A stretch of 64,000 nucleotides of DNA from Bacillota bacterium (GTDB lineage Bacteria; Bacillota; Clostridia; Oscillospirales; Ruminococcaceae), in contig JAEZYS010000009.1 in assembly GCA_023418925.1 (NCBI GenBank), positions 10,516 through 74,515 on the forward strand. Direction: 5' to 3'. Below are positions 44,600-59,504 of this stretch, piece after piece. Positions within the stretch are counted from its first letter, which is position 1. Every line of letters starts with the position of its first letter. The notes under the pieces are model-generated. The model did not search any database. It was not told the origin of the DNA and saw nothing but the letters and a program-made list of their open reading frames with translations. A program made the position numbers and the translations under genes.

Positions 44600-44675
44600 G
44601 GCGGTATAGCTCAGAGGCTAGAGCAACCGGTTCATACCCGGTAGGTCGTAAGTTCAAATCTCACTGCCGCTACCA
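44600..44675 (+). tRNA. tRNA-Met (anticodon CAT), elongator-type
   Basis: GGCGGTA-TA-GCTC-AGAGGCTA-GAGC-A-ACCGG-TTCATAC-CCGGT-AGGTC-GTAAG-TTCAAAT-CTCAC-TGCCGCT-A-CCA. Cloverleaf with CAT anticodon and encoded CCA. Resembles Firmicutes elongator tRNA-Met. Lacks the initiator GGG/CCC anticodon-stem signature. Confidence 0.8.
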
Positions 44676-44720
44676 TATTGTAATAAGCGGTAAAGATAAC
44701 ACTTCGCTTATTACAATTGC
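44676..44720 (+). other. Inter-tRNA spacer hairpin (possible processing site)
   Basis: TTGTAATAAGCG-gtaaagataacactt-CGCTTATTACAA: 12-bp perfect inverted repeat between the two tRNAs. Confidence 0.5.
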
Positions 44721-44795
44721 GGCCCGTTGGTCAAGAGGTTAAGACGACGCCCTTTCACGGCGTAATCATGGGTTCAATTCCCGTACGGGTCACCA
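44721..44795 (+). tRNA. tRNA-Glu (anticodon TTC)
   Basis: GGCCCGT-TG-GTCAAGAGGTTAAGAC-G-ACGCC-CTTTCAC-GGCGT-AATCA-TGGGT-TCAATTC-CCGTA-CGGGTC-A-CCA. Closely matches the bacterial tRNA-Glu consensus. Its 3' 23 nt are repeated at 59482. Confidence 0.9.
44773..44795 (+). repeat. attL core: 23-bp tRNA-Glu 3' end (direct repeat copy 1)
   Basis: TTCAATTCCCGTACGGGTCACCA is identical to 59482-59504. Confidence 0.8.
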
Positions 44796-48326: not shown

Positions 48327-48427
48327 ACGGGCGAAATCCAAAAGTATCTGTATACTTTCTGTGGCTTGCTAAACGTACTTAATAAAAAAGAATTCATACT
48401 CCTGCTTTTTAAGCATTTCGCCCGTTA
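48327..48427. promoter_or_regulatory. Candidate oriT / regulatory inverted repeat upstream of mobC-relaxase
   Basis: 12-bp perfect inverted repeat AACGGGCGAAAT (48327-48338) ... ATTTCGCCCGTT (48416-48427), in the position where oriT usually lies, upstream of mobC. Confidence 0.4.
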
Positions 48428-48444
48428 GGGCATACCCTCAATTT

Positions 48445-48741
48445 TTATGCTGCATTGCCATTCAGGTAATCCATCAGAGCAGACTTGCTTACAAGGATTT
48501 TCCCATTATTGCCTGCACCTGTTCTGATAAAAGAAATCTTGCCTTGTTTAACAAGCTGACGGACAGTATGCTCCGAAAGTCCTCTGACGGTTTCTGCACA
48601 CTCCTTAATAGTGAGCATTTCAACAGGCTGATTAACATTATGAACGATATTAGGCACTATCGGTTCATAATCAACAATAATTGTTTTTTCGAGTAGTGCC
48701 ACTACCTCTGTGATAATTATATTTTTCTGTTTAAGTGTCAA
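48445..48741 (-). CDS. xis: Excisionase-family DNA-binding protein (Xis, MerR-like winged helix)
   Basis: LTIKECAETVRGLSEHTVRQLVKQGKISFIRTGAGNNGKILVSKSAL matches the excisionase-family HTH domain. Located between the mob genes and the regulator as in Tn916-type elements. Confidence 0.7.
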   Translation of the reverse strand: MTLKQKNIIITEVVALLEKTIIVDYEPIVPNIVHNVNQPVEMLTIKECAETVRGLSEHTVRQLVKQGKISFIRTGAGNNGKILVSKSALMDYLNGNAA

Positions 48742-48925
48742 TGTAACCCTCCTTTTTCATTGCAATCTCATTGATAAGAGCAAGCAGTTCCCATTGCTTA
48801 TCCTCACTCATTTCAAATCGCATACGGCGAACCATAGTCTGCTCAGAAATACCGAGAGCAACAGCAAGCTCCCACTGGTACACCTTTTTATCTTTCAGCT
48901 CATACTTAATAATTTCATTAGCCAT
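48731..48925 (-). CDS. Small HTH transcriptional regulator
   Basis: MANEIIKYELKDKKVYQWELAVALGISEQTMVRRMR... has an HTH. Overlaps the xis start. Confidence 0.55.
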   Translation of the reverse strand: MANEIIKYELKDKKVYQWELAVALGISEQTMVRRMRFEMSEDKQWELLALINEIAMKKEGYIDT

Positions 48926-49164
48926 TTTGTTTCCTCCTGTCATTCCATATATGAAGTATGCTGGCAGCGAATAAACAGCGGTCAAGGCGGCGAACATTTT
49001 CCCTGTTCAAAATCAGCATCATCATAATTAAAGTATATCAAAAAAATATAACCCCTGCCGTATATGCGATAATCCGAAAATTTTTGCAAACGGAGGGGCG
49101 AAATTTTATATATGGAATTTTGAAACTACCTGATTTATAATGACTAATGACAATTAATAATCTG

Positions 49165-49195
49165 CTTGATTTTGGATGAAATATGTGTTATAATA
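49165..49195 (+). promoter_or_regulatory. Consensus sigma-70 promoter driving the RT leader
   Basis: TTGATT - 17 nt - TATAAT (cTTGATTttggatgaaatatgtgtTATAATa), a perfect -10 box. Predicted transcription start ~49202. Confidence 0.7.
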
Positions 49196-49199
49196 TCAT

Positions 49200-49535
49200 T
49201 GCATCATGTAATGACATGATGGTTGGGCATTGTTGTCAAGTAGTCTAATATGATTTCTTTGGAAACATTTAAACTTACTCGGCAGAGTTCTTCCAGCAGA
49301 ATTGTTGCTGTCAGAATAACAATATGACACAATAGATTGTTGATAGAACATCCCTCCTCGATTATTATAACATAATTGATGATTGAACAGTGTGTGGTTA
49401 CATACACTATGGGTAGTCGGTGTTTAGTTTTCGACACAAAAATTTAAAACTGAATACTGCGTTAATGTTATGCCTGTCGGTGTTGGATACTGCCCCCTTG
49501 CCGATGGGCATTTTCACATTTAAAGGAGAGCACAT
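49200..49535 (+). ncRNA. ~335-nt structured 5' leader / candidate RT-associated ncRNA
   Basis: No credible ORF on the + strand. Hairpins: CATCATGT-aatg-ACATGATG at the predicted 5' end; CAGCA-gaattgt-TGCTG; and a 10-bp stem UGCCUGUCGG/CCGAUGGGCA with a 20-nt loop immediately before the RBS (AAAGGAGAG) of the RT. Confidence 0.45.
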
Positions 49536-50843
49536 ATGACTTTATCAGAATGGAAAGATAAAAATTTAACAAAAAAGATGTATGCACATTTTGATAAAAG
49601 AGTAACAATTAATGATGCGTGGGATTATATATGTAGCCCTGAAATTGTTGCCAAGCATGGCTTCTATCCTTTTATACACTACATACAAGAATTTAATAAA
49701 TACAGCCAAGCTACGGGTATAAAGCCTAAAAAGCGAGAGATTTGTTACTCTGCACATTTAGATAGATGTATTTATCAATACTATTCTTTTTTATTAAATG
49801 AAAAATACAATATCAGAGTTAACAGAGACGGTTTAAATACTGTTGCTGTTGCATATAGAAATAATCTTGGTTATAATAATATTGATTTTTCTAAGCTTGC
49901 TTTTAATTTTATAAAAAAGTTTAAATCATGCTATATTATGGTTGGAGATTTTACGAGTTTTTTTGATAATTTGGATCATCAATACCTAAAAAAACGGCTT
50001 TGCGATTTATTGGAAGTAGATATTCTTCCGCCTGATTATTATGCTGTTTACAAAAATATTACTAGATATGCAAAGTGGGAATTATCCGATTTATTAAAGC
50101 TAAATGGATTGTCTAACAGCAAGGCTGATCGGCATAAATTAAATTCAAAAGAAAGCATACTTACACTAGAACAATTTAAAAAATATAAAAAACAATATGT
50201 TAGCAAGCACTCAGAACCATATGGCATTCCTCAAGGCTCAGCTATAAGTGCAGTATTAGCGAATATTTATATGCTGAATGCGGACAAAGACATTAATGAA
50301 TATATACATAAATGCAATGGTATGTATATGCGATATAGTGATGATTTTATAGTTATAATTCCAACAGCACAAGAACAATTTAAGTGCCATTACGAATGGA
50401 TCATGAGTTATTTGAAAACACTTTCAGGTATTGAGCTTTCACCCGAAAAAACTAAATTATTCAAGTATGACAGCTATAATATTAGTTGTTGTAATACTGA
50501 GCTAGGCATAACTGCCGGTAACGAAAAAAACATTTTGAACTTCCTTGGATTTTCATTTGATGGCAAGGAGATTACAATTAGGGATAAGACTATTTCAAAA
50601 TACTATTATAAAATGTATCGTAAAGCACGTACGATAAGCAAGAAAAAGTTAATAACTAATAAAGGAAACAGAATATCTTGCAAAAATCTTTATGAAAAGC
50701 ATTCTATAAAAGGTGCAAAAGATAATAGAGGAAATTTTCTCACATATGTATACCATGCAAATAAAGCATATCAACATGGTGAACCGATAGGACGTGCAAC
50801 TAAAAATCATATGGCTAAAATCAGGAAAGCATTAAATGAATAA
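49536..50843 (+). CDS. Reverse transcriptase (stand-alone; defence-associated/Abi-like class undetermined)
   Basis: RT motifs: 1/2 KKREICYSAHLDRCIYQYYSFLL; A VGDFTSFFDNLDH; B' PQGSAISAVLANIYM; C YMRYSDDFIV (YxDD); D/E and thumb LNFLGFSF. No maturase, endonuclease or retron VTG motif. 435 aa. Confidence 0.85.
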   Translation: MTLSEWKDKNLTKKMYAHFDKRVTINDAWDYICSPEIVAKHGFYPFIHYIQEFNKYSQATGIKPKKREICYSAHLDRCIYQYYSFLLNEKYNIRVNRDGLNTVAVAYRNNLGYNNIDFSKLAFNFIKKFKSCYIMVGDFTSFFDNLDHQYLKKRLCDLLEVDILPPDYYAVYKNITRYAKWELSDLLKLNGLSNSKADRHKLNSKESILTLEQFKKYKKQYVSKHSEPYGIPQGSAISAVLANIYMLNADKDINEYIHKCNGMYMRYSDDFIVIIPTAQEQFKCHYEWIMSYLKTLSGIELSPEKTKLFKYDSYNISCCNTELGITAGNEKNILNFLGFSFDGKEITIRDKTISKYYYKMYRKARTISKKKLITNKGNRISCKNLYEKHSIKGAKDNRGNFLTYVYHANKAYQHGEPIGRATKNHMAKIRKALNE

Positions 50844-50904
50844 ATGAAAATAAAGGGTACAAACAATACTTGTATCCTTGATTTTTTATATAAAAACATT
50901 AAAG

Positions 50905-51150
50905 CTATTTATTCCGGTTTGTTTTATTTAATTCGCTGTCAGAACGCCTTAATTTATTCACTTCATATGTAATTAATTCTTCAGGCGTTGGTCGGGTTCC
51001 TTTACAAGGGATTTTAACCCACTCAGCGTGAATAGTTGGATCTGGATTAGAAAACCCCTCATCAATTGCTTTTTGAAGCTCAATCAATACTTGTTTTCTG
51101 CTAACACCATCTTTTTTCGCAATTATATCTATTGCCTTTTTTACATCCAT
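50905..51150 (-). CDS. Spo0A C-terminal-domain-like small DNA-binding protein
   Basis: MDVKKAIDIIAKKDGVSRKQVLIELQKAIDEGFSNPD...KGTRPTPEELITYEVNKL parallels the Spo0A_C pattern (..RVERAIRHAIEVAW...KPTNSEFIA..A.KL). Confidence 0.5.
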   Translation of the reverse strand: MDVKKAIDIIAKKDGVSRKQVLIELQKAIDEGFSNPDPTIHAEWVKIPCKGTRPTPEELITYEVNKLRRSDSELNKTNRNK

Positions 51151-51278
51151 TTTAAACCTCCATAATATCTTAAATATTCTATGTATAATAATTATAGAGT
51201 AAATAACTCTATATGTCAATAGTGTATATAACTCTACGGTATAATATTAGTAACGAAATGAATATTGAGGGTGTTGAT

Positions 51279-51503
51279 ATGCATTATACACAGCGAATTA
51301 GAGATTTAAGAGAAGATTTGGATTTACGGCAGAAAGATGTAGCTGATTTATTAAATGTAGGTCAAAAAACTTATTCAGATTATGAATTAGGTAAAAGCCG
51401 CATACCAGTTGACAGTATTATTATTCTTGCAAAATTTTATAATGTCAGTTTAGATTATATATGTGGTGTTAGCAATGATAAACATCAATTCCCTGTAAAA
51501 TGA
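51279..51503 (+). CDS. XRE-family HTH transcriptional regulator
   Basis: IRDLREDLDLRQKDVADLLNVGQKTYSDYELGKSRIPVDSIIILAKFYNVSLDYICG is a classic Cro/CI-type HTH. Confidence 0.8.
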   Translation: MHYTQRIRDLREDLDLRQKDVADLLNVGQKTYSDYELGKSRIPVDSIIILAKFYNVSLDYICGVSNDKHQFPVK

Positions 51504-52303
51504 GGTGCAGTATGGAACTAAAAATGACAATGGGTGAAAAGCTGAAAGATTTACGCACAGAAAAAGGCTTAACCACAAAGGAAGTCAGCCAGCTTACTGG
51601 AATTTCTGAGGCTGTTTACAACGGACTTGAGAACGATGCCGACCGTGATACTGGTTACAGCAGAATTGTTGCACTTGCAAAGTTTTATGATGTTCCTACG
51701 GATTATCTGCTTGGATTTACAGAAAGCCGTATCACAAAAAATATTGAGCTGAAAGAATTACAGTTGACTGATAAAGCTATTAATGTACTGCTTTCTAAAA
51801 ATCAGAATAATCATTTGCTTAGCAAATTGATTGAGCATAAGGATTTTTCAAACTTGATAAACTCCATTGATGTATATGTCCGTCAGCTTGCTGCTCCGCA
51901 TATCGGAACTGTCAATAATATGCTGAAAATTGCACAGCATGGCGTTCAAAATTATTATTCAGATAACAAGCCAAAGCCAGAAGATTTTAACAATGCTATG
52001 AATTATATGAATGAAACGGTTGTTAATGAGGACGATTTTCTGCGTTTTCGTATATCAGAGAGGTTTAATCAGATTTTGCGTGATGTTTATGATGTGTATG
52101 CTAATAATAATGATGATGATAAGCCGCAGAATACAACAAATGAAGTTACTGGACATATGGTTGATGTGCTTAATATGGTAAAGTCAGGCGAATTAAAGCT
52201 TGATACCCCTGAAGATGCGGTTGCTGTTATGATGGAGCGGATGGGAGCTTCACAAACAGAAATGCTATCCCTATTTGATGAACTGTTTGGTGGGGATGAA
52301 TAA
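51500..52303 (+). CDS. XRE-family HTH regulator with extended C-terminal domain
   Basis: N-terminal LKDLRTEKGLTTKEVSQLTGISEAVYNGLEN... is an HTH. ~190-aa C-terminal domain of unknown function. Start overlaps the upstream stop. Confidence 0.7.
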   Translation: MRCSMELKMTMGEKLKDLRTEKGLTTKEVSQLTGISEAVYNGLENDADRDTGYSRIVALAKFYDVPTDYLLGFTESRITKNIELKELQLTDKAINVLLSKNQNNHLLSKLIEHKDFSNLINSIDVYVRQLAAPHIGTVNNMLKIAQHGVQNYYSDNKPKPEDFNNAMNYMNETVVNEDDFLRFRISERFNQILRDVYDVYANNNDDDKPQNTTNEVTGHMVDVLNMVKSGELKLDTPEDAVAVMMERMGASQTEMLSLFDELFGGDE

Positions 52304-52416
52304 TATATCTTCTAAAAAGCTGAGGCAAACAATGTTTGTATTAGGTCAATGTGATTAATTATTATGGTATAATTAATATGAATATTTATATCTATTTGGA
52401 ACAGGGCGTGATAGTA

Positions 52417-54159
52417 ATGAAAGATACTGAACAAAAAGCTGCTGCTAAAAAGTTTGCAGAATACTGGAAAGATAAAGGCTATGAAAAAGGTGAAAGCCAG
52501 CCATTTTGGTTAGAGCTTTTGCAAAATATTTATGGTGTTGAAAATCCTGCTCATTATATAACTTTTGAAGAACAAGTACATCTTGACCATACAAGTTTTA
52601 TTGATGGTCATATCCTTGCTACACATGTTCTGATTGAACAAAAAAGCAAAGGCAAAAATCTTAAAGCAGGAATAAAGCAATCAGACGGCAGTATTCTTTC
52701 ACCTTTTCAACAAGCAAAAAGGTATGCGGCAGAACTGCCTTATTCTAAGCGTCCACGATGGATTGTTACCTGCAATTTTGAAGAATTTTTAGTTTATGAT
52801 ATGGAAAAGCCTAACGGTGAGCCTGAACAGATATTTTTAAAGGATTTAGCAAAAGAATATTATCGTTTAAATTTTCTTGTTGATACGGCGGACGAAAATA
52901 TCAAAAAGGAAATGGAGCTTTCTTTAAAGGCTGGCGAAATTGTCGGCGTTCTTTATGATGAAATTCTAAAAGAATATGATAACCCGAGTGATGCACAAAC
53001 GCTCAAAAGCTTAAATATGCTTTGCGTTCGGCTTGTATTTTGTTTATATGCTGAGGATGCAGGCATTTTTGGCACTCATGAAATGTTTGGCAAGTATCTT
53101 AAGGGTTTTCAAGTAAAAGATGTCCGCAAGGCTTTAATTGAGCTGTTTAAGGTTCTTGATATAAAATCAGAAGACCGTGATAAATATATGGATAATGATT
53201 TAGCGGCTTTTCCATATGTCAACGGCGGACTTTTTGCTAATGAAGATATTGAAATTCCACGCTTTAACGAAAAAATAGTTAGATTACTTATTGAAAATGC
53301 AAGCGAGGGCTTTGATTGGAGCGATATTTCACCTACTATCTTTGGTGCTGTTTTTGAAAGCACATTAAATCCTGAAACACGTCGAAGCGGTGGTATGCAC
53401 TATACGTCAATTGAAAATATCCACAAGGTTATCGACCCTCTTTTCATGGATGAGCTTAAAGCAGAACTTGATGAAATCAAGCTGATAAAAGTTGAAAAAT
53501 CCCGAAACAAACGACTGGAGGAGTTTCAGCAAAAGCTTTCAGAACTTAAATTTCTTGACCCTGCCTGCGGTTCAGGCAACTTTTTGACTGAAACTTATAT
53601 TTCATTAAGACGGCTTGAAAATGATGTTCTTTCAACACTGACACATAACGAAGGAGGAATATCAAAGCTTTTTAATAAAATTAAAAGCTCTGATCAGCTT
53701 TTTGATGAGTGGATACTGAAAACCATTATAAAATCAATACCGTCTGGTAAAAAACTGAATGAAATGTTTAATGTTCTTATTGAAAGCATTAATGAAAATG
53801 ATGATATAATAAAACAAAAGGAAGCATTTGAGCGCTTTTTAATGGATGTTGACGGATATGTTGATAACCTTGATGAGCTAATGAAGCAGTATGACAAGAT
53901 TGAAAATATTCAAAAAGAAATTGCTGACATATACTATTTTTTGATAGGCAGAGAAAATGCTGCTGGTTTAAATATCGATGATTGTGAAGTGTCTATAAAA
54001 AAACTGACGAACAAATTCGTCATATTGAATATGAAAGGCTTTCAGATAACTATTACAATTCATTTGATAAACTATGCGAAGCAAGGGATTTATGCGGTGA
54101 GGCAAACGTCGCAAAAGAATACGCTAATACCGAGTATAAAAAAGCACAAAGGCAAGTAA
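52417..54159 (+). CDS. MmeI-like (type IIL/IIG RM) N-terminal PD-ExK nuclease + helical + truncated methyltransferase
   Basis: Colinear similarity to MmeI. Nuclease D...EQK (HILATHVLIEQKSKG versus MmeI DLFWPGILLIEMKSRG). RWIVTCNFEEF versus RYVLVCDFQRF. LVFCLYAEDAGIF versus LLFCLFAEDTTIF. LAAFPYVNGGLF...GMHYTSIENIHKVIDPLFMDEL versus the MmeI helical/linker. AdoMet motif I FLDPACGSGNFL. No motif IV (NPPF/Y) or TRD follows. The last ~55 residues are low-complexity, non-protein-like. Confidence 0.7.
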   Translation: MKDTEQKAAAKKFAEYWKDKGYEKGESQPFWLELLQNIYGVENPAHYITFEEQVHLDHTSFIDGHILATHVLIEQKSKGKNLKAGIKQSDGSILSPFQQAKRYAAELPYSKRPRWIVTCNFEEFLVYDMEKPNGEPEQIFLKDLAKEYYRLNFLVDTADENIKKEMELSLKAGEIVGVLYDEILKEYDNPSDAQTLKSLNMLCVRLVFCLYAEDAGIFGTHEMFGKYLKGFQVKDVRKALIELFKVLDIKSEDRDKYMDNDLAAFPYVNGGLFANEDIEIPRFNEKIVRLLIENASEGFDWSDISPTIFGAVFESTLNPETRRSGGMHYTSIENIHKVIDPLFMDELKAELDEIKLIKVEKSRNKRLEEFQQKLSELKFLDPACGSGNFLTETYISLRRLENDVLSTLTHNEGGISKLFNKIKSSDQLFDEWILKTIIKSIPSGKKLNEMFNVLIESINENDDIIKQKEAFERFLMDVDGYVDNLDELMKQYDKIENIQKEIADIYYFLIGRENAAGLNIDDCEVSIKKLTNKFVILNMKGFQITITIHLINYAKQGIYAVRQTSQKNTLIPSIKKHKGK

Positions 54160-57100
54160 ATATTCTTGAAGCAGCAGAAATTTATAATAAATACAAAGCC
54201 ACACAAGCTGTAATTGATGCAAAAACCAGTGAACTAAGCAGAATTAATAAGGGTGATAACGAAACAAGATATAATGATTTGGTTTTTTCGTTATTACAGG
54301 AGTATAATAAAAAACGGCTTGATTTGGAGGGAAAAATATCTTCTTATAAGGAATCCCTTATTGAAATAAAAAACACGTTGGAAAGCCTTGATAACGAAAA
54401 GGCAGTAATCCAAAATAACCGTTTCGAATTATCTCAAAAAACCGGCAGATTAGATGAATCGCTTAAAAGTTTTTTAAATTATGAGAAGGCCTTGTTTGAT
54501 GAACTGGATATCCCTTTAATACGCTCAATTACATTGGAATATGATGAAGCGGATATTAAATTTGTGCAGGACAGCTTTAAACTTAAAAGGAACTCATTAT
54601 TTGAAATGCAGAAAACTTGCGAAAAGGAAATAGAGTGTTTGGGGGTTAATAAAGAGCAGCTTAAAAAAGAGGAAGCTTCAAAGCATGAGCATTCCTCTGA
54701 TTTAAAAATCAATATTGTAAAATCAGAGGATGATATTAAACAATATAAAATATCTGAAGAAAAAGCTTTGTCCGCTATACGTAATTTAGAGCTGAGCAGT
54801 GCTGATTTATTTAACATGAGCCTTAATATTATTAATCTTGACATTAAAGAAAAGAACTTAATAAGCAAACTGGATGGTTACAAATTAAAGCTTAATTCAC
54901 AAAAGGAGTATCTTGAGTCTATAAAGAATGGTTCTGCACATATTTCTCCTGAGTTTTCGGACAAGCTAAGAAAGCTTAATATCGACTTTGAAATTGGCGA
55001 GAAATTTTTGCTTGAAGAAGATAACGAAGACCATCGCAGACAGCTTTTAAGCAACAATCCAATGCTGCCATTTTGCTATATTGTCAAGCGAAAAGACTAT
55101 GAGATAATAAAAAATACAGATTTTGAGGGCAGTATAAATAAAGTTATTCCAATAATCACGTTTGAAGATGCTGATATAAATGCTTCATTATCAAAAAAAG
55201 CAGTGGAAATTAACGATAATAAAATGCTTGTTTGTTTATATAACAAGGAATGTATTGATGAGCAAAGCAAGAAAATATTTATCGAAAATCTTGAGAATGA
55301 TATTGAAAAGCTGCAAAGCTCTGCTGAAACAATTCAAAAAGATTTGGAGCAGTTTAGAGTTAATAAAAATGATATTATAAGCTTTAATTATGAAAGAGAT
55401 TATTTTACTCGGAAAAATGATGAACTAAAAAAATTTAATGACAGCTTTAATATTACCCAAAATAGGCTTCAAGTTATAGCAGAAGAAATTAAACAAAACG
55501 ATGAAAGAACTGCTCTTTTAACACAAAATCTTAACGAACTAAAATTAAGTTCAGTTAAAAACAATGAAAATGAAACTCGTTTCAATAAGTATCTTGATGA
55601 AAATGCAGTATATTTATCAAATTATAATGATTTTCAAAGCGTTAAAACGCAGATAAGTATTTATGAAAAGAGATATCTTGAAATCGACGCTCTAATAAAA
55701 GAATTTATGGGCAATGAAAAGGATTTTTCTGATAAAGAGCGAAAAACTAGTTCCGACCTTGAAAAAATTAAGGAGAAAGCATCGTCGTTAGATAGTTCAA
55801 TAATCGGCGAAGCTTTAAACCTGCCCATTGAACAAATGGAGATTGAATATCAAAATATTTTAAGCGGAATTAAGCATAGTATTGATGAAATAGAAAGAGC
55901 TATCAAATCTGCAAACGATCAAATAAGTGACCATAACAAAAAGCTAATGAGATATTCTGACTATAAAGATGAATATACAAATCCTGATATTGTTTTTAGT
56001 GATGAAATATTTGATAATGCAGAATATAACGAGAAAAATAAGCAGGTTATTTTTGAAACAGCAAGCGAAACGGCACATACAGCTGAAATTGAGCATGGTA
56101 AATGCGAAGGTGAATTCAATGCTGATAAAAAAAGTTTAGAATCAGCAGGGTTTACTATGCCAATCGATAGAAATTATATCAAGCGTGATTTTGAAAAAAG
56201 GCGCAAAGATTTAAAGAGTAAAAAAGATGATATAATCGAACGAAAAAATGCAAATCTGCGTTTGCAAAAAGCTTGCTTAGAAAGAATTAACAAGCTTGAC
56301 AATTGCTTCGGTTCATTCGAAAAGTCAGGAAGATTTAGAACGGATGACATTACATCAATTAATCCAGCAGAATTGAAAGAACGTCTTAAAATAGCTGTTT
56401 CAGAAAAGGATAGACTGTACAAAGACCTTTCAAATACTTTTAATAAGGTCAATTCTAAATATGCCAAATGCGAATATGTGGTTATTTTAGATTTTATCTC
56501 AAATATGAGTGTTGAACAGGCGGTAACCTTTGAAGACAGCTTTGCTATTTTCGAGCGGGTAAAAAACTGTCAGGAATGTTTGTCTGATGAACTTGCAGTG
56601 GCTATAAATACGCTTGAAAATGTTGAAAATCAGAAAACTACACTTATAAGGCATGCTGTTGAGCATGGCAAAAAGCTTTATAATGAAGCCAAAACTATGG
56701 CGAATAAATCGCTTGTTAAAATTGACGGCAGGTCAAGACAAATGCTTTATATAGATATTCCCGAAAGTTATGATTCGGACTGCGAAAATTCTATGAGGCG
56801 TTATCTTGAAAAATTTCTTGCTGAAATACGTAGTGATACTGCTAATATTATTGAACAAAAACAAAAGCTATATCGAAAGATTTCGGCAGTTTTTGCTGAC
56901 CGGGAATTACTAAATATAGTTATTGGCAAAAGGAATGTATCTGTTTCGCTATATAAGGTTGATGCTACAAACAGCAATGGCTGTCTGCGAAAATGGGAAG
57001 ATGTCTGCATTGAAAATTCAGGCGCACAGATGTTTATATCTGCATTTGCTTTTATTTCAACTTTAATGGACTACACTCGAAATAAAACTCTTGAACAAAA

Positions 57101-57425
57101 CGGCGGCGAAAATCTTAAAACCACAAAATCATTCATTATTGACAATCCTTTTGGAGAAATGTCCTCAAAGCCTTTTATGGATGCGATGGTAGCTGTTTCA
57201 GAAAAGTTCACAATGCAGCTTATTTGTCTATCTGATTTAAGCCAAAGCTCTATAACAAATAAATTTAATGTTATTTATCAGCTTGCGTTAAGAACACCTG
57301 TATGCAGTAATAAGTCTTATTTACAGGTTGTCAATACGGTTACAAACAGCGATGTTCATAAATATGATAAGCTTGAACATACCTCTATGAGCATAATAAG
57401 TACTGAACAGTTATCATTGTTTTAA
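53988..57425 (+). CDS. Long coiled-coil protein with SMC/Rad50-like C-terminal head half (signature + degenerate Walker B; no Walker A). Frame is open from 53988 and the first start codon (TTG) is at 54279
   Basis: ~880 aa of heptad-rich Lys/Glu sequence. The C-terminus NSGAQMFISAFAFISTLMDY...KSFIIDNPFGEMSSKPFMDAM resembles an ABC signature motif followed by Walker B/D-loop (compare SbcC LFLDEPFGTLD). No GxxGxGK[ST] anywhere. Overlaps the previous ORF by 172 nt in the -1 frame. An A7 run at 53997-54003 sits at the frame junction. Confidence 0.6.
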   Translation, partial: SVYKKTDEQIRHIEYERLSDNYYNSFDKLCEARDLCGEANVAKEYANTEYKKAQRQVNILEAAEIYNKYKATQAVIDAKTSELSRINKGDNETRYNDLVFSLLQEYNKKRLDLEGKISSYKESLIEIKNTLESLDNEKAVIQNNRFELSQKTGRLDESLKSFLNYEKALFDELDIPLIRSITLEYDEADIKFVQDSFKLKRNSLFEMQKTCEKEIECLGVNKEQLKKEEASKHEHSSDLKINIVKSEDDIKQYKISEEKALSAIRNLELSSADLFNMSLNIINLDIKEKNLISKLDGYKLKLNSQKEYLESIKNGSAHISPEFSDKLRKLNIDFEIGEKFLLEEDNEDHRRQLLSNNPMLPFCYIVKRKDYEIIKNTDFEGSINKVIPIITFEDADINASLSKKAVEINDNKMLVCLYNKECIDEQSKKIFIENLENDIEKLQSSAETIQKDLEQFRVNKNDIISFNYERDYFTRKNDELKKFNDSFNITQNRLQVIAEEIKQNDERTALLTQNLNELKLSSVKNNENETRFNKYLDENAVYLSNYNDFQSVKTQISIYEKRYLEIDALIKEFMGNEKDFSDKERKTSSDLEKIKEKASSLDSSIIGEALNLPIEQMEIEYQNILSGIKHSIDEIERAIKSANDQISDHNKKLMRYSDYKDEYTNPDIVFSDEIFDNAEYNEKNKQVIFETASETAHTAEIEHGKCEGEFNADKKSLESAGFTMPIDRNYIKRDFEKRRKDLKSKKDDIIERKNANLRLQKACLERINKLDNCFGSFEKSGRFRTDDITSINPAELKERLKIAVSEKDRLYKDLSNTFNKVNSKYAKCEYVVILDFISNMSVEQAVTFEDSFAIFERVKNCQECLSDELAVAINTLENVENQKTTLIRHAVEHGKKLYNEAKTMANKSLVKIDGRSRQMLYIDIPESYDSDCENSMRRYLEKFLAEIRSDTANIIEQKQKLYRKISAVFADRELLNIVIGKRNVSVSLYKVDATNSNGCLRKWEDVCIENSGAQMFISAFAFISTLMDYTRNKTLEQNGGENLKTTKSFIIDNPFGEMSSKPFMDAMVAVSEKFTMQLICLSDLSQSSITNKFNVIYQLALRTPVCSNKSYLQVVNTVTNSDVHKYDKLEHTSMSIISTEQLSLF

Positions 57426-57469
57426 GCGAAAGCACACAAAAGCGTCTTTAGATTGTCTTGAGTTTCATT

Positions 57470-57640
57470 CCTTTGAGTCAGTTAAACGCACGTTTTAATG
57501 CATCATGCTGCGTTTAAAATGCGTTAAAATTACGAATGAAGCATAAATTCTTCAGTTTTAAAAAAACGCTTGCATTCTAATGCGCAATTATGCTATAATA
57601 AAGTAAATCTAACGCACGCGTGTGTTAAATGAGGTGTTAA
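57470..57640 (+). promoter_or_regulatory. Promoter plus palindromic operator array upstream of the AlbA_2 gene
   Basis: TTAAACGCA (57479) and inverted TGCGTTTAA (57510), additional copies ATGCGTTAAAAT and TAACGCACGCGTGTGTTAA. Sigma-70-like TTGCAT-18-TATAAT at ~57566-57595. Confidence 0.5.
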
Positions 57641-57641
57641 A

Positions 57642-59285
57642 GTGAATATTGGATTTAAAGAAGATATTATTTCTGAATTTAAAAGTGATAAGAGTAAGCT
57701 TTCAGATTCAGATATTGTTGATGCGGTTGTTGCATTTGCAAATACTAATGGCGGCGCTCTATATATCGGAGTTGAAGATGACGGCGAGATAACAGGATTA
57801 CATGATGAGCATAAAGATATAACAAAGCTTGCTGCGTTTATTGCAAATAAAACTGTACCGCCTATTTCGACAAGACCAGAAATTATTGATAACACTTATA
57901 TTAAAATAAGTATTCCATCAAGCAAGAGTATTGTGGCATCATCGTCCGGAAAAATATTAAGACGTCGAATAAAAGCAGATGGTACGCCTGAAAATGTTCC
58001 AATGTATCCACATGAAATTAATACAAGACTATCTACACTTAGCCTGCTTGATTATTCAGCGTTACGAATACCTAATGCAGAATATGATGATTTAGATGAT
58101 TTAGAACGAAAAAGACTACGAACAATAATAAAAAATTATCATGGCGAAAGCTTACTGCTTGAGCTGGAAAATGAAGAACTTGACAAAGCACTGAGACTTG
58201 CTGTTGAAGAAGACGGCAAGCTGTTTCCAACTTATTGTGGTTTGCTTTTAATAGGCAAAATTGAAAGAATAAAAGAATATATGCCAACAGCGGAGTCAGC
58301 CTTTCAGGTTTTACATGGCACCTCTGTTGTTATGAATGAGTCATTTATTATTCCACTGCTTTCTGCATTTGAAAAAATAGAAACTTTTATTAACGCACAT
58401 AACACAGAAGTAGAATTAGAAGAAGGATTCTTTAGAATATCCTTGCCTGATTTTAACAAAAGAGCTATTAGAGAAGCTTTAGTAAACGCTTTTTGCCATA
58501 GAGATTATACCATGCTTGGCAGAGTAAGAGTACTAATTGATGATGATGGTTTGACAATAGCTAACCCCGGTGGATTTATTGAGGGAGTAACAATTGATAA
58601 TTTATTGTCGGTCGAACCACATGGGCGTAATCCGGCGTTAGCAGATGCTTTGAAACGAATTGGACTTGCTGAACGAACAGGCAGAGGTGTAGACAGAATA
58701 TATGAAGGGTCACTTTTATATGGGAAGCCACTTCCGGATTATTCGGAATCTACTGATGTTATGGTTAAATTATTTATTCCAAGAAGCTTGCCGGACAAGT
58801 CATTTATATCAATGATTTCTGATGAACAAAAACGCACTTCCAGTTCTTTGCCTATAAATTCACTGCTGGTTCTAAATGAATTAAAACGAAATAGACGTGC
58901 TGACATACACGAATTAGCTTATGCAACTCATGTAACTGAGTCTAAAACGAAAATAACTGTAGAAAAACTTGTAGAAACTGGGCTAATTGAAGCAAACGGT
59001 AATGGGAAAAATAGATTTTACACATTAAGTGCTAAATTGTATAAGCAATCAGATAATGTTCAAGGTTATGTTTTGCAAAAAGGAATTGACAGCATTAGAT
59101 ATCCTGAAATGATAATTCAATTTGCTGAAAATAATAATGGAAAAATCACACGCAGTGATGTTATTCAACTTTTAAAAATAACAGATTCACAAGCTTATAG
59201 AATACTTAAGAAACTTGCTGACAGCAATAAATTAGAGCTCATTGGAAAAGGAAAATACTCTCACTATAAGTTAATATCAAAATAA
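57642..59285 (+). CDS. Schlafen-like AlbA_2 domain + HATPase_c_4 + C-terminal wHTH protein (putative regulator/sensor)
   Basis: N-terminal EDIISEFKSDKSKLSDSDIVDAVVAFANTNGGALYIGVEDDGEITGL is the divergent-AAA/AlbA_2 signature. The middle GHKLY-like ATPase fold (HATPase_c_4) and C-terminal HTH region follow the common three-domain architecture. GTG start. Confidence 0.7.
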   Translation: MNIGFKEDIISEFKSDKSKLSDSDIVDAVVAFANTNGGALYIGVEDDGEITGLHDEHKDITKLAAFIANKTVPPISTRPEIIDNTYIKISIPSSKSIVASSSGKILRRRIKADGTPENVPMYPHEINTRLSTLSLLDYSALRIPNAEYDDLDDLERKRLRTIIKNYHGESLLLELENEELDKALRLAVEEDGKLFPTYCGLLLIGKIERIKEYMPTAESAFQVLHGTSVVMNESFIIPLLSAFEKIETFINAHNTEVELEEGFFRISLPDFNKRAIREALVNAFCHRDYTMLGRVRVLIDDDGLTIANPGGFIEGVTIDNLLSVEPHGRNPALADALKRIGLAERTGRGVDRIYEGSLLYGKPLPDYSESTDVMVKLFIPRSLPDKSFISMISDEQKRTSSSLPINSLLVLNELKRNRRADIHELAYATHVTESKTKITVEKLVETGLIEANGNGKNRFYTLSAKLYKQSDNVQGYVLQKGIDSIRYPEMIIQFAENNNGKITRSDVIQLLKITDSQAYRILKKLADSNKLELIGKGKYSHYKLISK

Positions 59286-59481
59286 AAATAGCCGTTAATG
59301 CATATAAACATTAATGGCTATTTAGCAGAAATATAACGTGGTATTGGGTCTTATTTGGGTCTTATTGATACAAAAATATGCGATTTTTAGCGATAAGCTG
59401 AGATAAGCTAAGTGCTCACAAAGCCCGTAGAATAGGCATTTACACCACTTTAAGATAAGTTGCAAAATCCGTGTCGCTTGA

Positions 59482-59504
59482 TTCAATTCCCGTACGGGTC
59501 ACCA
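59482..59504 (+). repeat. Direct repeat copy 2 of the tRNA-Glu 3' end (att junction between element 1 and element 2)
   Basis: Exact 23-bp match to the tRNA-Glu 3' end. It is followed by a diverged copy of the tRNA-downstream hairpin terminator (TTGCTGAAACAGCGTAGATACGTTGTTTCAGCAA + T-run), so the homology extends ~70 bp. Confidence 0.8.

What the first reader, a model, noticed from the sequence alone, without database searches (positions are those of the whole stretch)
49165..50843. Stand-alone reverse transcriptase with its own consensus promoter and a ~335-nt structured non-coding leader inside an integrative mobilizable element
The 435-aa ORF has the full RT palm (motifs 1-2, A, B', YSDD, thumb) but no intron maturase, HNH, HEPN, nitrilase or retron VTG features. 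It is preceded by a perfect TTGATT-N17-TATAAT promoter and 335 nt with no ORF. The leader holds several hairpins, including a 10-bp stem that abuts the RBS. This RT plus cis ncRNA layout is the architecture of defence RTs that use a templating ncRNA (DRT2/UG2-like, DRT9/UG28-like, some Abi RTs). It sits in the cargo region of a tRNA-integrated mobile element next to XRE/Spo0A_C regulators, which is typical defence-island context. Class membership cannot be decided by eye, so this may be a new or poorly described RT-ncRNA defence module.
Basis: partly seen in the sequence, partly recalled or inferred. Interest (0 to 1): 0.82.

Follow-up and report, generated by a model that had tools for sequence, protein, structure and literature searches.

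The report
DRT2 antiviral reverse transcriptase locus
This is an ordinary member of the known DRT2 anti-phage system: a reverse transcriptase plus an upstream structured RNA whose template, if copied round and round, would assemble a promoter and an endless gene for a toxic repeat protein.

Summary
A 435-aa reverse transcriptase (RT; 49536-50843, +) follows a promoter (TTGATT-N17-TATAAT, 49166-49194) and a ~335-nt structured leader. It lies in a 14.7-kb tRNA-Glu-integrated mobilizable element.

It is not a new module. The RT is a clear Drt2/UG2: PADLOC E=4e-141, next family 7e-19, and 35% identity to the solved Klebsiella DRT2.

The leader is the DRT2 non-coding RNA. It has a 5' hairpin (Rfam RT-6), a template, and a covarying pseudoknotted 3' scaffold.

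The template (49229-49381) lies between two AUU(G) repeats exactly 153 nt apart. Joined head to tail on the antisense strand, it gives TTGACA-N17-TATAAT, then GGAGG, then a stop-free 51-codon frame coding a hydrophobic repeat.

In 51 of 57 homologous loci the unit is a multiple of 3, always with the same open frame (P~1e-18).

Differences from Klebsiella are minor: AUU rather than ACA repeats, a 153-nt rather than 120-nt unit, and AUC instead of AUG at the conserved neo start. Tang et al. 2024 Table S1 already lists this clade's RNA, with predicted cDNA ending TTGACAACAAT.

Verdict: a new member of a known kind, of low novelty. The rolling-circle mechanism is inferred by homology and was not tested here.

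The parts
49166..49194 (+). Sigma-70-type promoter shared by the ncRNA and the RT: TTGATT (49166-71), N17, TG-extended TATAAT (49189-94)
   Evidence: scores it 10 of 12 with TG. The position is conserved upstream of SL1 in 27 aligned homologous loci.
49200..49518 (+). DRT2 non-coding RNA (approximate ends): 5' handle, template, pseudoknotted scaffold
   Evidence: Rfam RT-6 hits 49200-49272 at 59 bits against a gathering score of 46.7. Scaffold model R1 hits 49397-49517 at E=7e-12, the only hit in the 64-kb window. The fold has z = -3.57. The ends are inferred, not mapped.
49202..49221 (+). SL1 / 5' handle hairpin: CAUCAUGU (49202-09), loop AAUG, ACAUGAUG (49214-21)
   Evidence: 8 bp. All 8 pairs show compensatory changes in at least one of 27 sequences. 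It forms part of the RT-6 match.
49229..49232 (+). [quoted passage not shown]
   Evidence: ATTG occurs here in 41 of 49 distinct loci. It lies within the near-invariant ATTGTTGTCAA block.
49229..49381 (-). Predicted template / neo repeat unit, 153 nt = 51 codons. The cDNA-sense frame 1 is stop-free round the circle and codes INNLLCHIVILTATILLEELCRVSLNVSKEIILDYLTTINYVIIIEEGCS.
   Evidence: The unit is a multiple of 3 in 51 of 57 loci, always with the same open frame. Peptides are conserved among relatives. Substitutions by codon position are 104:61:134.
49234..49239 (-). -35 element TTGACA of the junction promoter (TGTCAA on the + strand)
   Evidence: Near-invariant in homologs. After head-to-tail joining it lies 17 nt upstream of TATAAT.
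49364..49369 (-). -10 element TATAAT of the junction promoter (ATTATA on the + strand), 12 nt from the predicted cDNA 5' end
   Evidence: Conserved. Klebsiella has the same 12-nt offset (Wilkinson 2024).
49353..49357 (-). Shine-Dalgarno GGAGG for neo, 6 nt after the -10
   Evidence: In most of the 49 distinct units the best GGAGG-like match lies at the same offset, index 24.
49342..49344 (-). Conserved neo start position, 8 nt after GGAGG. It is AUC in this window. At this offset relatives have ATG (14 of 49 distinct units), ATC, ATA or ATT; several others have an in-frame ATG at a different offset.
   Evidence: Frame 1 of the window unit contains no ATG or GTG (direct reading of the sequence).
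49359..49378 (+). Template hairpin overlapping the -10 (49359-65 pairs with 49372-78)
   Evidence: 70% of cells are paired and 5 of 7 pairs are compensatory. The register is uncertain in some sequences.
49382..49385 (+). Downstream flanking repeat AUU(G)-2, the predicted landing site for the template jump
   Evidence: A and T are invariant and the third T is at least 90% conserved. ATT occurs here in 43 of 49 loci.
49390..49407 (+). Extra lineage-specific hairpin GUGUGU-GGUUAC-AUACAC
   Evidence: Among the loci examined it is seen only in the window (alignment A4) and in the 99.5%-identical contig L081.
49411..49417 (+). Pseudoknot 5' strand GGGUAGU
   Evidence: It pairs with 49489-49495. 98.5% of cells are paired and 6 of 7 pairs are compensatory in 37 sequences. 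In 42 sequences the figures are 96.6% and 7 of 7.
49418..49459 (+). Middle hairpin, 'tower'-like, with base pairs 49418-26 / 49451-59
   Evidence: 9 of 9 pairs are compensatory and 78% of cells are paired.
49470..49511 (+). 3' hairpin (12 bp, 49470-81 / 49500-11). Its loop carries the pseudoknot 3' strand ACUGCCC (49489-95).
   Evidence: 98.4% of cells are paired and 10 of 12 pairs are compensatory. 0 of 500 shuffles reach the observed scores.
49536..50843 (+). Drt2 (UG2) reverse transcriptase, 435 aa, YSDD active site. Its own RBS GGAG is at 49525-28.
   Evidence: PADLOC Drt2 E=4e-141. NCBIfam Drt2 scores 375.9 bits. PDB 9c0i matches at E=3e-58 with 35% identity. More than 3,200 homologs were found, some named Drt2.
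50853..50889 (+). Intrinsic terminator after the RT (10-bp stem plus a T run)

Best explanation
This is a complete DRT2 (UG2) anti-phage system carried as cargo on a tRNA-Glu-integrated mobilizable element.

**Shown here from sequence**
- One promoter (49166-49194) precedes a ~320-nt ncRNA followed by the RT gene.
- The ncRNA has a 5' handle hairpin, a 153-nt template between two AUU(G) repeats (49229 and 49382), and a 3' scaffold. The scaffold comprises a long hairpin and a terminal hairpin whose loop forms a pseudoknot with the strand just after the template.

**Inferred by homology to Klebsiella DRT2**
1. The RT binds this RNA and copies the template.
2. When the cDNA 3' end (...CAAT) has been templated by AUU(G)-1, it re-pairs with AUU(G)-2 and copying starts again.
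3. This yields a head-to-tail concatemer of 153-nt repeats.
4. Phage infection triggers or permits second-strand synthesis.
5. Each junction of the double-stranded product reads ...TTGACA-ACAAT|CATCAATTATGT-TATAAT, a perfect -35/N17/-10 promoter that does not exist in the chromosome.
6. The resulting mRNA, antisense to the ncRNA, carries GGAGG and a 51-codon frame with no stop that continues across junctions (neo).
7. The product is a hydrophobic repeat protein that arrests the infected cell.

In this element the conserved start position carries AUC rather than AUG, so initiation is presumably weak or non-canonical.
For: **RT family.** PADLOC Drt2 scores 469 bits (E=4e-141) against 66 bits for the next family. 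NCBIfam Drt2 scores 375.9 bits. The RT is 35% identical over about 400 residues to the solved Klebsiella DRT2. Homologs at about 52% identity are named Drt2 by NCBI.

**ncRNA.**
- Rfam RT-6 matches 49200-49272 above its gathering score.
- SL1, the pseudoknot and the 3' hairpin covary strongly: 92% of cells paired, 25 of 28 pairs compensatory, 0 of 500 shuffles as good, and slid controls at 32-47%.
- A model of the scaffold hits once in the window. It also hits 66 of 88 other loci, always just upstream of the RT on the same strand.

**Neo logic.**
- The unit between the repeats is 153 nt and stop-free in the cDNA sense.
- In 51 of 57 homologous loci the unit is a multiple of 3 (binomial P=1.6e-18). 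All 51 have the same open frame, with lengths from 87 to 222 nt.
- Seven closer relatives behave the same way.
- Frame-1 peptides are conserved, and substitutions by codon position are 104:61:134.
- The junction gives TTGACA-N17-TATAAT, followed by GGAGG at a fixed offset.

**Match to published DRT2.** The layout agrees with the published features. These are a -10 element 12 nt from the cDNA 5' end, 17-bp spacing at the junction, an RBS and start codon just after the -10, hydrophobic bias, and a pseudoknotted scaffold. Tang et al. Table S1 lists the same ncRNA type with cDNA ending TTGACAACAAT.

**Single-gene operon.** A terminator follows the RT, and the next gene lies on the opposite strand.
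Against: - Nothing was measured here: no cDNA, no junction reads, no defence phenotype.
- The NCBIfam Drt2 score (375.9) is just under the curated equivalog cut-off of 390.
- The flanking repeat is AUU(G), not the ACA that both papers treat as conserved in the Klebsiella clade.
- The conserved neo frame in this window has no AUG or GUG. The codon at the conserved start position is AUC. Translation may therefore be inefficient, or this copy may be weakened.
- A second frame of the unit is also stop-free and carries an ATG, but that ATG lies only 1 nt after GGAGG.
- The window unit on its own is only modestly significant: P=0.014 for a given frame by shuffling. The case rests on the comparative data.
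- The 3' scaffold is not detected by Rfam RT-12, which matches a Photobacterium DRT2 plasmid locus (RT 52.6% identical to Klebsiella DRT2).
Confidence: 0.88

Rival explanations
1. The locus is a DRT2 by descent but a weakened or inactive copy. The conserved neo frame has lost its AUG (AUC at 49344..49342), so little or no Neo is made and the element no longer defends.
For: Frame 1 of the window unit has no ATG or GTG. Relatives L001, L083 and L084 have ATG at this position. The neighbouring large gene is frameshifted in this window compared with the 99.5%-identical contig, so some decay exists in the element.
Against: ATC at this position is shared by L082, L085, L086 and L087, whose RTs are 63-74% identical. 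In all of them the frame stays open and the unit stays a multiple of 3, which argues for continued selection. ATA, ATC or ATT occupies this position in about 40% of the units in this clade (19 of 49). The RT keeps every column that is invariant among 25 homologs. The promoter, SD, repeats and scaffold are all intact.
Confidence: 0.08
2. The minus-strand open frame is a conventional small gene antisense to the RT leader (for example the 77-aa ORF 49204..49437, or a 46-aa hydrophobic peptide from 49344). It would act like a small toxin and involve no reverse-transcribed concatemer.
For: the ORF listing reports 51-aa and 77-aa minus-strand ORFs in the leader. The peptide is hydrophobic (55% ILVFMCAW). 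A TATAAT and a GGAGG precede it in the linear genome.
Against: A linear gene does not need the distance between the two AUU repeats to be a multiple of 3, yet 51 of 57 loci obey this. It would not place TTGACA inside its own 3' coding end at exactly the offset that gives N17 after permutation. In the linear genome the -10 has no -35. The part of the unit upstream of the start is also kept open in frame. The RT is a Drt2.
Confidence: 0.02
3. It is another ncRNA-using defence RT (DRT9/UG28 poly-dA synthesis, DRT10 telomerase-like repeats, DRT3) or an Abi-type RT.
For: These share the general RT-plus-upstream-ncRNA layout. Weak PADLOC hits exist to Drt9 (64 bits), Drt3a (64 bits) and UG39 (66 bits).
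Against: The Drt2 profile scores 469 bits, about 400 bits above all of these. No partner gene is in the operon (no SLATT, no second RT). The template carries a coding frame and split promoter, which are specific to DRT2.
Confidence: 0.01
4. It is a retron or a group II intron RT.
For: NCBIfam gives weak partial hits to group II RT/maturase (75 bits against a cut-off of 300) and to a retron RT (41 bits against 235).
Against: Both hits are far below their cut-offs and cover only the palm. Rfam finds no group II intron or retron msr RNA anywhere in the window. There is no maturase or endonuclease domain.
Confidence: 0.005

Closest known systems
Klebsiella pneumoniae DRT2 (Tang et al. 2024, PMC11100668; Wilkinson et al. 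2024, PMC12039810; PDB 9c0i)
   Same: Both are single RT genes with an upstream ncRNA under one promoter. Both have a 5' hairpin handle, a template flanked by a 3-4-nt direct repeat, and a pseudoknotted 3' scaffold with a long hairpin. In the cDNA sense, TATAAT lies 12 nt from the start and TTGACA lies near the end, giving N17 at the junction. An RBS and start follow just after the -10. The unit is divisible by 3, the antisense frame is stop-free, and the repeat peptide is hydrophobic (searches compared).
   Different: The RT is only 35% identical, with YSDD instead of YCDD. The repeat is AUU(G) rather than ACA. The -35 lies 5 nt from the cDNA end; in the Klebsiella-type cDNAs of Tang Table S1 and in Photobacterium it lies 6 nt from the end, with the -10 11 nt from the start. 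The unit is 153 nt (51 aa) rather than 120 nt (40 aa). The start codon is AUC here. The ncRNA is about 320 nt rather than 281 nt, with an extra hairpin. The scaffold is not recognised by Rfam RT-12.
Clostridiales bacterium KLE1615 and Ruminococcus sp. AF17-11 DRT2 entries in Tang et al. 2024 Supplementary Table S1
   Same: The ncRNA type is the same (SL1, then GG.ATTGTTGTCAA... TATTATA.CAT ... ATTG, GGATAGCTGG scaffold). The predicted cDNA ends ...TTGACAACAAT, the boundary inferred here.
   Different: They come from different hosts and loci, and the neo peptide sequences differ. The paper's text says Neo annotation outside the Klebsiella clade was 'more challenging'. Here the frame rule was tested on 57+ loci of this clade.
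Rfam RF03027 RT-6 RNA motif
   Same: It matches 49200-49272 at 59 bits, and matches the same position in homologous loci.
   Different: RT-6 covers only the 5' handle plus the first about 45 nt of the template. It does not include the rest of the template or the pseudoknotted scaffold.
DRT9 and DRT10 (ncRNA-templated homopolymer or telomerase-like tandem-repeat synthesis)
   Same: These are defence RTs that repeatedly copy a short region of a cis-encoded ncRNA (abstracts).
   Different: They are different RT families (Drt9 scores 64 bits here). Their products are protein-primed non-coding repeats, and DRT10 needs a SLATT effector. Neither has a split promoter or a coding frame.
Junction promoters of circularised insertion sequences (IS911 type)
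   Same: A -35 and a -10 are kept apart in the linear element and are joined only in the reaction product. Wilkinson et al. draw this analogy.
   Different: In those elements the junction is made by DNA transposition, not by reverse transcription of an RNA.

Membership tests
DRT2 (UG2) defence system | The RT belongs to the Drt2/UG2 clade by profile | tested here: met
   PADLOC Drt2 models give E=4e-141 and 1e-90, and the next family gives 7e-19. PDB DRT2 chains match at E=3e-58.
DRT2 (UG2) defence system | Passes NCBIfam NF041746 (Drt2 equivalog) curated cut-off | tested here: inconclusive
   The score is 375.9 bits against a cut-off of 390, with full-length coverage 3-415 of 416. It is a near miss. 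Homologs at about 52% identity are named Drt2 by NCBI.
DRT2 (UG2) defence system | Single-gene system with a structured ncRNA directly upstream under the same promoter | tested here: met
   The promoter is conserved upstream of SL1 in homologs. A terminator follows the RT and there is no co-oriented partner gene. That there is a single transcription start is inferred, not measured.
DRT2 (UG2) defence system | ncRNA architecture: 5' hairpin handle, template, 3' scaffold with a long hairpin and a pseudoknot | tested here: met
   Covariation supports SL1, the pseudoknot, the middle hairpin and the 3' hairpin. The scaffold model is specific to RT-upstream positions.
DRT2 (UG2) defence system | Template flanked by a short direct repeat that allows the template jump | tested here: met
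   AUU(G) lies at 49229 and 49382. ATTG occurs at site 1 in 41 of 49 loci and ATT at site 2 in 43 of 49.
DRT2 (UG2) defence system | The flanking repeat is specifically ACA (ACA-1/ACA-2 of the Klebsiella clade) | tested here: not met
   No ACA lies at the 5' template boundary (direct reading). This motif defines the Klebsiella subclade rather than the family: Tang Table S1 gives cDNA ending ...ACAAT for this clade.
DRT2 (UG2) defence system | Repeat unit divisible by 3 with one stop-free frame on the strand antisense to the ncRNA | tested here: met
   The window unit is 153 nt. 51 of 57 loci are multiples of 3, all with the same open frame. Seven closer relatives also conform. The ncRNA-sense strand has no open circular frame.
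DRT2 (UG2) defence system | A -35 and a -10 separated in the genome but brought to 17-bp spacing across the repeat junction | tested here: met
   TTGACA + ACAAT | CATCAATTATGT + TATAAT. The same offsets occur in nearly all loci.
DRT2 (UG2) defence system | RBS and start codon just downstream of the -10 in the open frame | tested here: inconclusive
   GGAGG is present 6 nt after the -10. The in-frame codon 8 nt later is AUC in the window, and ATG in 14 of the 49 distinct units at that offset.
DRT2 (UG2) defence system | Concatemeric cDNA is made, and phage defence depends on RT activity and on the neo frame | not testable with these tools
   This needs cDNA sequencing and plaque assays.
Retron | Retron-type RT with an adjacent msr/msd RNA | tested here: not met
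   The best retron RT hit is 41 bits against a cut-off of 235. There is no retron RNA family hit in the window.
Group II intron RT/maturase | RT with a maturase domain embedded in a group II intron RNA | tested here: not met
   TIGR04416 scores 75 bits against a cut-off of 300 and covers the palm only. Rfam finds no intron RNA.
DRT9 (UG28) | RT matches the Drt9 profile as its best family | tested here: not met
   Drt9 scores 64 bits against 469 bits for Drt2.

The most novel reading that the evidence does not exclude
In this subclade neo may be initiated at a non-AUG codon. AUC is shared by the window and by relatives L082 and L085-L087, and frame 1 of the unit has no AUG or GUG. Alternatively, this particular element may code two endless frames. 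Frame 0 is also stop-free and starts with AUG, which occurs in about 4% of units in the clade. Either case would be a variation in how the de novo gene is expressed or throttled.
Probability: 0.12. Interest if true: 0.4.

Novelty: new member of a known kind. Interest (0 to 1): 0.2.

Why it matters
It adds little that is new. It is one more DRT2, here riding on a small integrative mobilizable element of a low-GC gut-type Bacillota genome.

Its value is as a clean worked example. The neo rules hold across at least 58 loci whose RTs are only about 35% identical to the characterised Klebsiella system. Those rules are a unit divisible by 3, the same open antisense frame, and a TTGACA-N17-TATAAT junction promoter followed by an SD. 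Here the repeat is AUU rather than ACA.

That gives a simple sequence-only recipe for annotating neo in this clade. The recipe is to take the distance from ATTGTTGTCAA to the ATT located 12 nt after ATTATA. It also flags the frequent non-AUG start as something to test.

Tried and rejected
- **Frame 0 as neo.** I first took the minus-strand ATG at 49351 (frame 0, 51-aa ORF 49196..49351) as the neo start. I rejected it because only frame 1 is open in the other 49 loci and in relatives L082-L087, and because frame-1 peptides are conserved.
- **ACA repeats.** I looked for ACA-1/ACA-2 as in Klebsiella. They are absent at the boundaries, and AUU(G) occupies that place.
- **RNAalifold.** On the whole upstream alignment it found only SL1 and the 3' hairpin. 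The pseudoknot, the middle hairpin and the template hairpin had to be specified by hand and then counted.
- **Template hairpin.** It is only 70% paired, so it remains a weak call.
- **Motif detection.** The first regex mis-picked motifs in several loci (L023, L036, L038). Re-picking rescues them, but that selection was post hoc and is not included in the 51-of-57 statistic.
- **Rfam RT-12.** It matches the Photobacterium DRT2 scaffold but not this window, even at E<=10.
- **Structure prediction.** AlphaFold2 on four Neo repeats without an alignment gave pLDDT 33.8, which is uninformative.
- **Klebsiella ncRNA sequence.** I searched the Wilkinson supplement for it and found no sequence. I used a Photobacterium plasmid DRT2 instead.
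- **Basal stem.** I did not find an SL2-like basal stem enclosing the template and did not pursue it.
- **Host organism.** It was not identified.
Full report
**1. Observation**

The 435-aa ORF at 49536..50843 (+) is real. Its only Pfam domain is RVT_1.

Upstream lies TTGATT (49166-71), N17, TATAAT (49189-94) with a TG extended -10.

About 335 nt separate the likely transcription start from the ATG. No + strand ORF of 40 aa or more lies there. The leader folds at -99.7 kcal/mol, z = -3.57 against dinucleotide shuffles.

An intrinsic terminator follows the RT (50853-50879 plus a T run), and the next gene is on the opposite strand.

**2. Context**

tRNA-Met and tRNA-Glu lie at 44600-44795. The last 23 nt of tRNA-Glu (44773-44795) recur exactly at 59482-59504. 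This bounds a 14.7-kb element.

- The element contains a tyrosine integrase, a MobA/VirD2 relaxase, NikA/MobC, an HTH_17 protein, the RT, two XRE regulators, a large chimeric gene and an AlbA_2/HATPase_c_4 gene.
- A metagenomic contig (L081) is 99.5% identical over window 48364-59485. The identity stops at the right-hand repeat.

'Integrative mobilizable element at a tRNA' is therefore confirmed. A Spo0A_C neighbour is not.

**3. The RT is a Drt2**

- PADLOC's two Drt2 models give E=4e-141 (469 bits) and 1e-90. The next best family (UG39) gives 7e-19, and Drt9 scores 64 bits.
- NCBIfam Drt2 scores 375.9 bits over the full length, just under the curated 390. Group II intron and retron models fall far below their cut-offs.
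- The best solved structures are the K. pneumoniae DRT2 entries (9c0i and others, E=3e-58). Identity is 35% over about 400 residues, with YSDD here and YCDD there.
- The protein database holds more than 3,200 homologs at E<=1e-20. The named hits among the best 120 are all from Bacillota, and some are named 'antiviral reverse transcriptase Drt2'.

**4. The leader is the DRT2 ncRNA**

Rfam RT-6 (RF03027) matches 49200-49272 at 59 bits against a gathering score of 46.7. It is the only non-tRNA family hit in the 64-kb window.

I fetched 80 genomic loci and 7 closer metagenomic loci. Alignment of the regions upstream of the RT shows these conserved blocks:
- the promoter;
- SL1;
- GG.ATTGTTGTCAA;
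- a variable stretch;
- CCTCC;
- TATTATAACAT;
- an invariant ATT 12 nt further on;
- GGGTAGC;
- a variable hairpin;
- a terminal hairpin whose loop contains GCTACCC.

Covariation supports the structure.
- SL1 has 8 bp, and all 8 pairs show compensatory changes in at least one sequence.
- On 37 sequences, the pseudoknot (49411-17 with 49489-95) is 98.5% paired with 6 of 7 pairs compensatory.
- The 3' hairpin (49470-81 with 49500-11) is 98.4% paired with 10 of 12 compensatory.
- The middle hairpin base is 78% paired with 9 of 9 compensatory.
- No shuffle out of 500 reaches the observed values, and partners slid by 1-3 columns give 32-47% pairing (similar).

A covariance model of the scaffold finds exactly one hit in the window (49397-49517, E=7e-12). 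It also hits 66 of the 88 other loci, always on the RT strand just upstream of the RT.

This matches the published architecture: a 5' handle hairpin, a loosely held template, then 'tower' and 'buttress' hairpins and a pseudoknot gripping the RT thumb.

**5. The neo test**

In Klebsiella DRT2 the RT copies a 120-nt template repeatedly. It jumps between two ACA triplets. The double-stranded concatemer then acquires a promoter across each junction and encodes a stop-less ORF antisense to the ncRNA.

Here the conserved blocks read naturally on the minus strand:
- TGTCAA is TTGACA (-35);
- ATTATA is TATAAT (-10);
- CCTCC is GGAGG.

The invariant ATT(G) after the -10 (49382) is a copy of the ATT(G) that begins ATTGTTGTCAA (49229). 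The distance between the two is 153 nt, or 51 codons. Joining the unit head to tail gives ...TTGACA-ACAAT|CATCAATTATGT-TATAAT-AATCGA-GGAGG..., a perfect -35/N17/-10 followed by an SD.

The comparative data carry the argument.
- Among 57 loci in which both boundary motifs were found automatically, 51 have a unit length divisible by 3 (binomial P=1.6e-18). Lengths range from 87 to 222 nt.
- All 51 have a stop-free circular frame, always the same one relative to the junction.
- Most exceptions were motif mis-picks (post hoc).
- Seven closer relatives (RT 63-99% identical) all conform.
- The ncRNA-sense strand has no open circular frame.
- In that frame the peptides are visibly conserved. The window reads INYVIIIEEGCSINNLLCHIVILTATILLEELCRVSLNVSKEIILDYLTT, and L082 reads LNYVIITEEVYSINNILCQLVILTAAVLLKELCHTILNILNGIIAECLTT.
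- Substitutions fall 104:61:134 on codon positions 1:2:3.
- The peptide is 55% hydrophobic, as reported for Klebsiella Neo.

For the window alone, shuffling gives P=0.014 for a given frame. The comparative data therefore make the case.

**6. Deviations**

(a) The flanking repeat is AUU(G), not ACA.
- A Photobacterium plasmid DRT2 (RT 52.6% identical to the Klebsiella RT) has A[C/U]AGAU repeats 111 nt apart, and its scaffold matches Rfam RT-12 rather than RT-6.
- The repeat and the register therefore differ between lineages while the N17 rule holds.

(b) The in-frame codon 8 nt after GGAGG is AUC in the window.
- Frame 1 has no AUG or GUG anywhere in the unit.
- Relatives L001, L083 and L084 have ATG there.
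- L082 and L085-L087 share ATC yet keep the frame intact.

(c) The window and its near-identical copy L081, plus L059, also have frame 0 open.
- In the window and L081, frame 0 starts with an ATG that lies only 1 nt after GGAGG.
- This occurs in about 4% of units and is probably chance.

(d) An extra hairpin (49390-49407) is specific to this element.

**7. Comparison with the literature**

Tang et al. state that Neo annotation outside the Klebsiella clade was 'more challenging'.

Their Supplementary Table S1 nevertheless lists Clostridiales bacterium KLE1615 and Ruminococcus sp. AF17-11 with the same ncRNA type (...GGTATTGTTGTCAA...). Both rows give a predicted cDNA ending ...TTGACAACAAT; the KLE1615 row also carries a plausible neo sequence starting at ATG, whereas the AF17-11 entry in that column looks dubious.

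The clade, its RNA and the boundary I inferred are therefore already in the public record. The library I searched holds no later paper on this clade.

**8. Mechanism and confidence**

Shown from sequence:
- the family of the RT;
- the conserved, covarying, pseudoknotted ncRNA;
- the direct repeats;
- the multiple-of-3, open-frame, split-promoter and SD arrangement.

Inferred by homology only:
- RT-ncRNA binding;
- self-priming from the ncRNA 3' end;
- rolling-circle reverse transcription;
- phage-triggered second-strand synthesis;
- transcription, translation and growth arrest.

Structure prediction of four Neo repeats was uninformative (pLDDT 33.8).

**9. Verdict**

This is an ordinary DRT2 system and a new member of a known kind. 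The suggestion of a new module is not supported. Interest is low.

Noticed in passing
window 52351-57425 (ORFs 52351..54159 and 54279..57425); L081 3990-9065: The large gene next to the XRE pair is a chimera. Residues 23-437 match the N-terminal part of a Type IIG/MmeI-like restriction-methyltransferase (MmeI_N, helicase spacer, only the first ~50 of 259 methyltransferase positions). Residues ~431-1651 match JetC (Wadjet SMC-like, DUF3584), positions 201-1435 of 1471. It is one 1691-aa ORF in the 99.5%-identical contig L081 but is split by a frameshift in the window.
   Followed up: partly
window 44773-44795 and 59482-59504: An exact 23-nt direct repeat (TTCAATTCCCGTACGGGTCACCA), the 3' end of tRNA-Glu, bounds a 14.7-kb integrative mobilizable element. 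Identity to contig L081 ends at the right-hand copy.
   Followed up: yes
window 57642-59285: The last cargo gene (547 aa) combines a Schlafen AlbA_2 domain, HATPase_c_4 and winged-helix domains. It gives weak PADLOC hits to pAgo-associated proteins. It may be another defence or regulatory gene.
   Followed up: no
window 49229-49381, minus strand: Two of the three circular frames of the template unit are stop-free: frame 1 (conserved, hydrophobic, AUC start) and frame 0 (polar, ATG at 49351 only 1 nt after GGAGG). By shuffling, P is about 2e-4 for two or more open frames. However, 2 of 51 homologous units also have frame 0 open, so this is probably chance.
   Followed up: partly
window 49390-49407: An extra hairpin (GTGTGT-GGTTAC-ATACAC) lies between the downstream AUU repeat and the pseudoknot strand. 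It is absent from all other aligned loci; only the 99.5%-identical contig L081 shares it.
   Followed up: no
window 49483-49498 (loop of the 3' hairpin); alignment A2 columns 451-452 with 462-463: RNAalifold predicts two G-C pairs inside the loop that also show GC-to-AU covariation (4-6 sequences). They would enclose the pseudoknot strand. This may indicate alternative conformations of the scaffold.
   Followed up: no
L082 1509-4624: In the contig of a 74%-identical relative, the DRT2 locus sits next to a second, different RT (344 aa, RVT_1) preceded by an HTH gene and followed by an AAA-ATPase_like/PDDEXK_9 gene. This looks like a small defence cluster.
   Followed up: no
L085 1936-4870 and L086 1987-4798: Two other relatives lie beside Mob_Pre relaxase genes and a YpsA-family gene. 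This suggests DRT2 in this clade often travels on small mobilizable elements.
   Followed up: no
L088 428-544 (Photobacterium damselae plasmid pPHDD1): An annotated drt2 on a conjugative plasmid has an upstream ncRNA with A[C/U]AGAU repeats 111 nt apart, TGTCAA and ATTATA in the expected places, and an Rfam RT-12 match on its scaffold (537-649). RT-12 is thus the 3' scaffold of the Proteobacterial DRT2 ncRNA, and RT-6 is the 5' part of the Bacillota one.
   Followed up: partly
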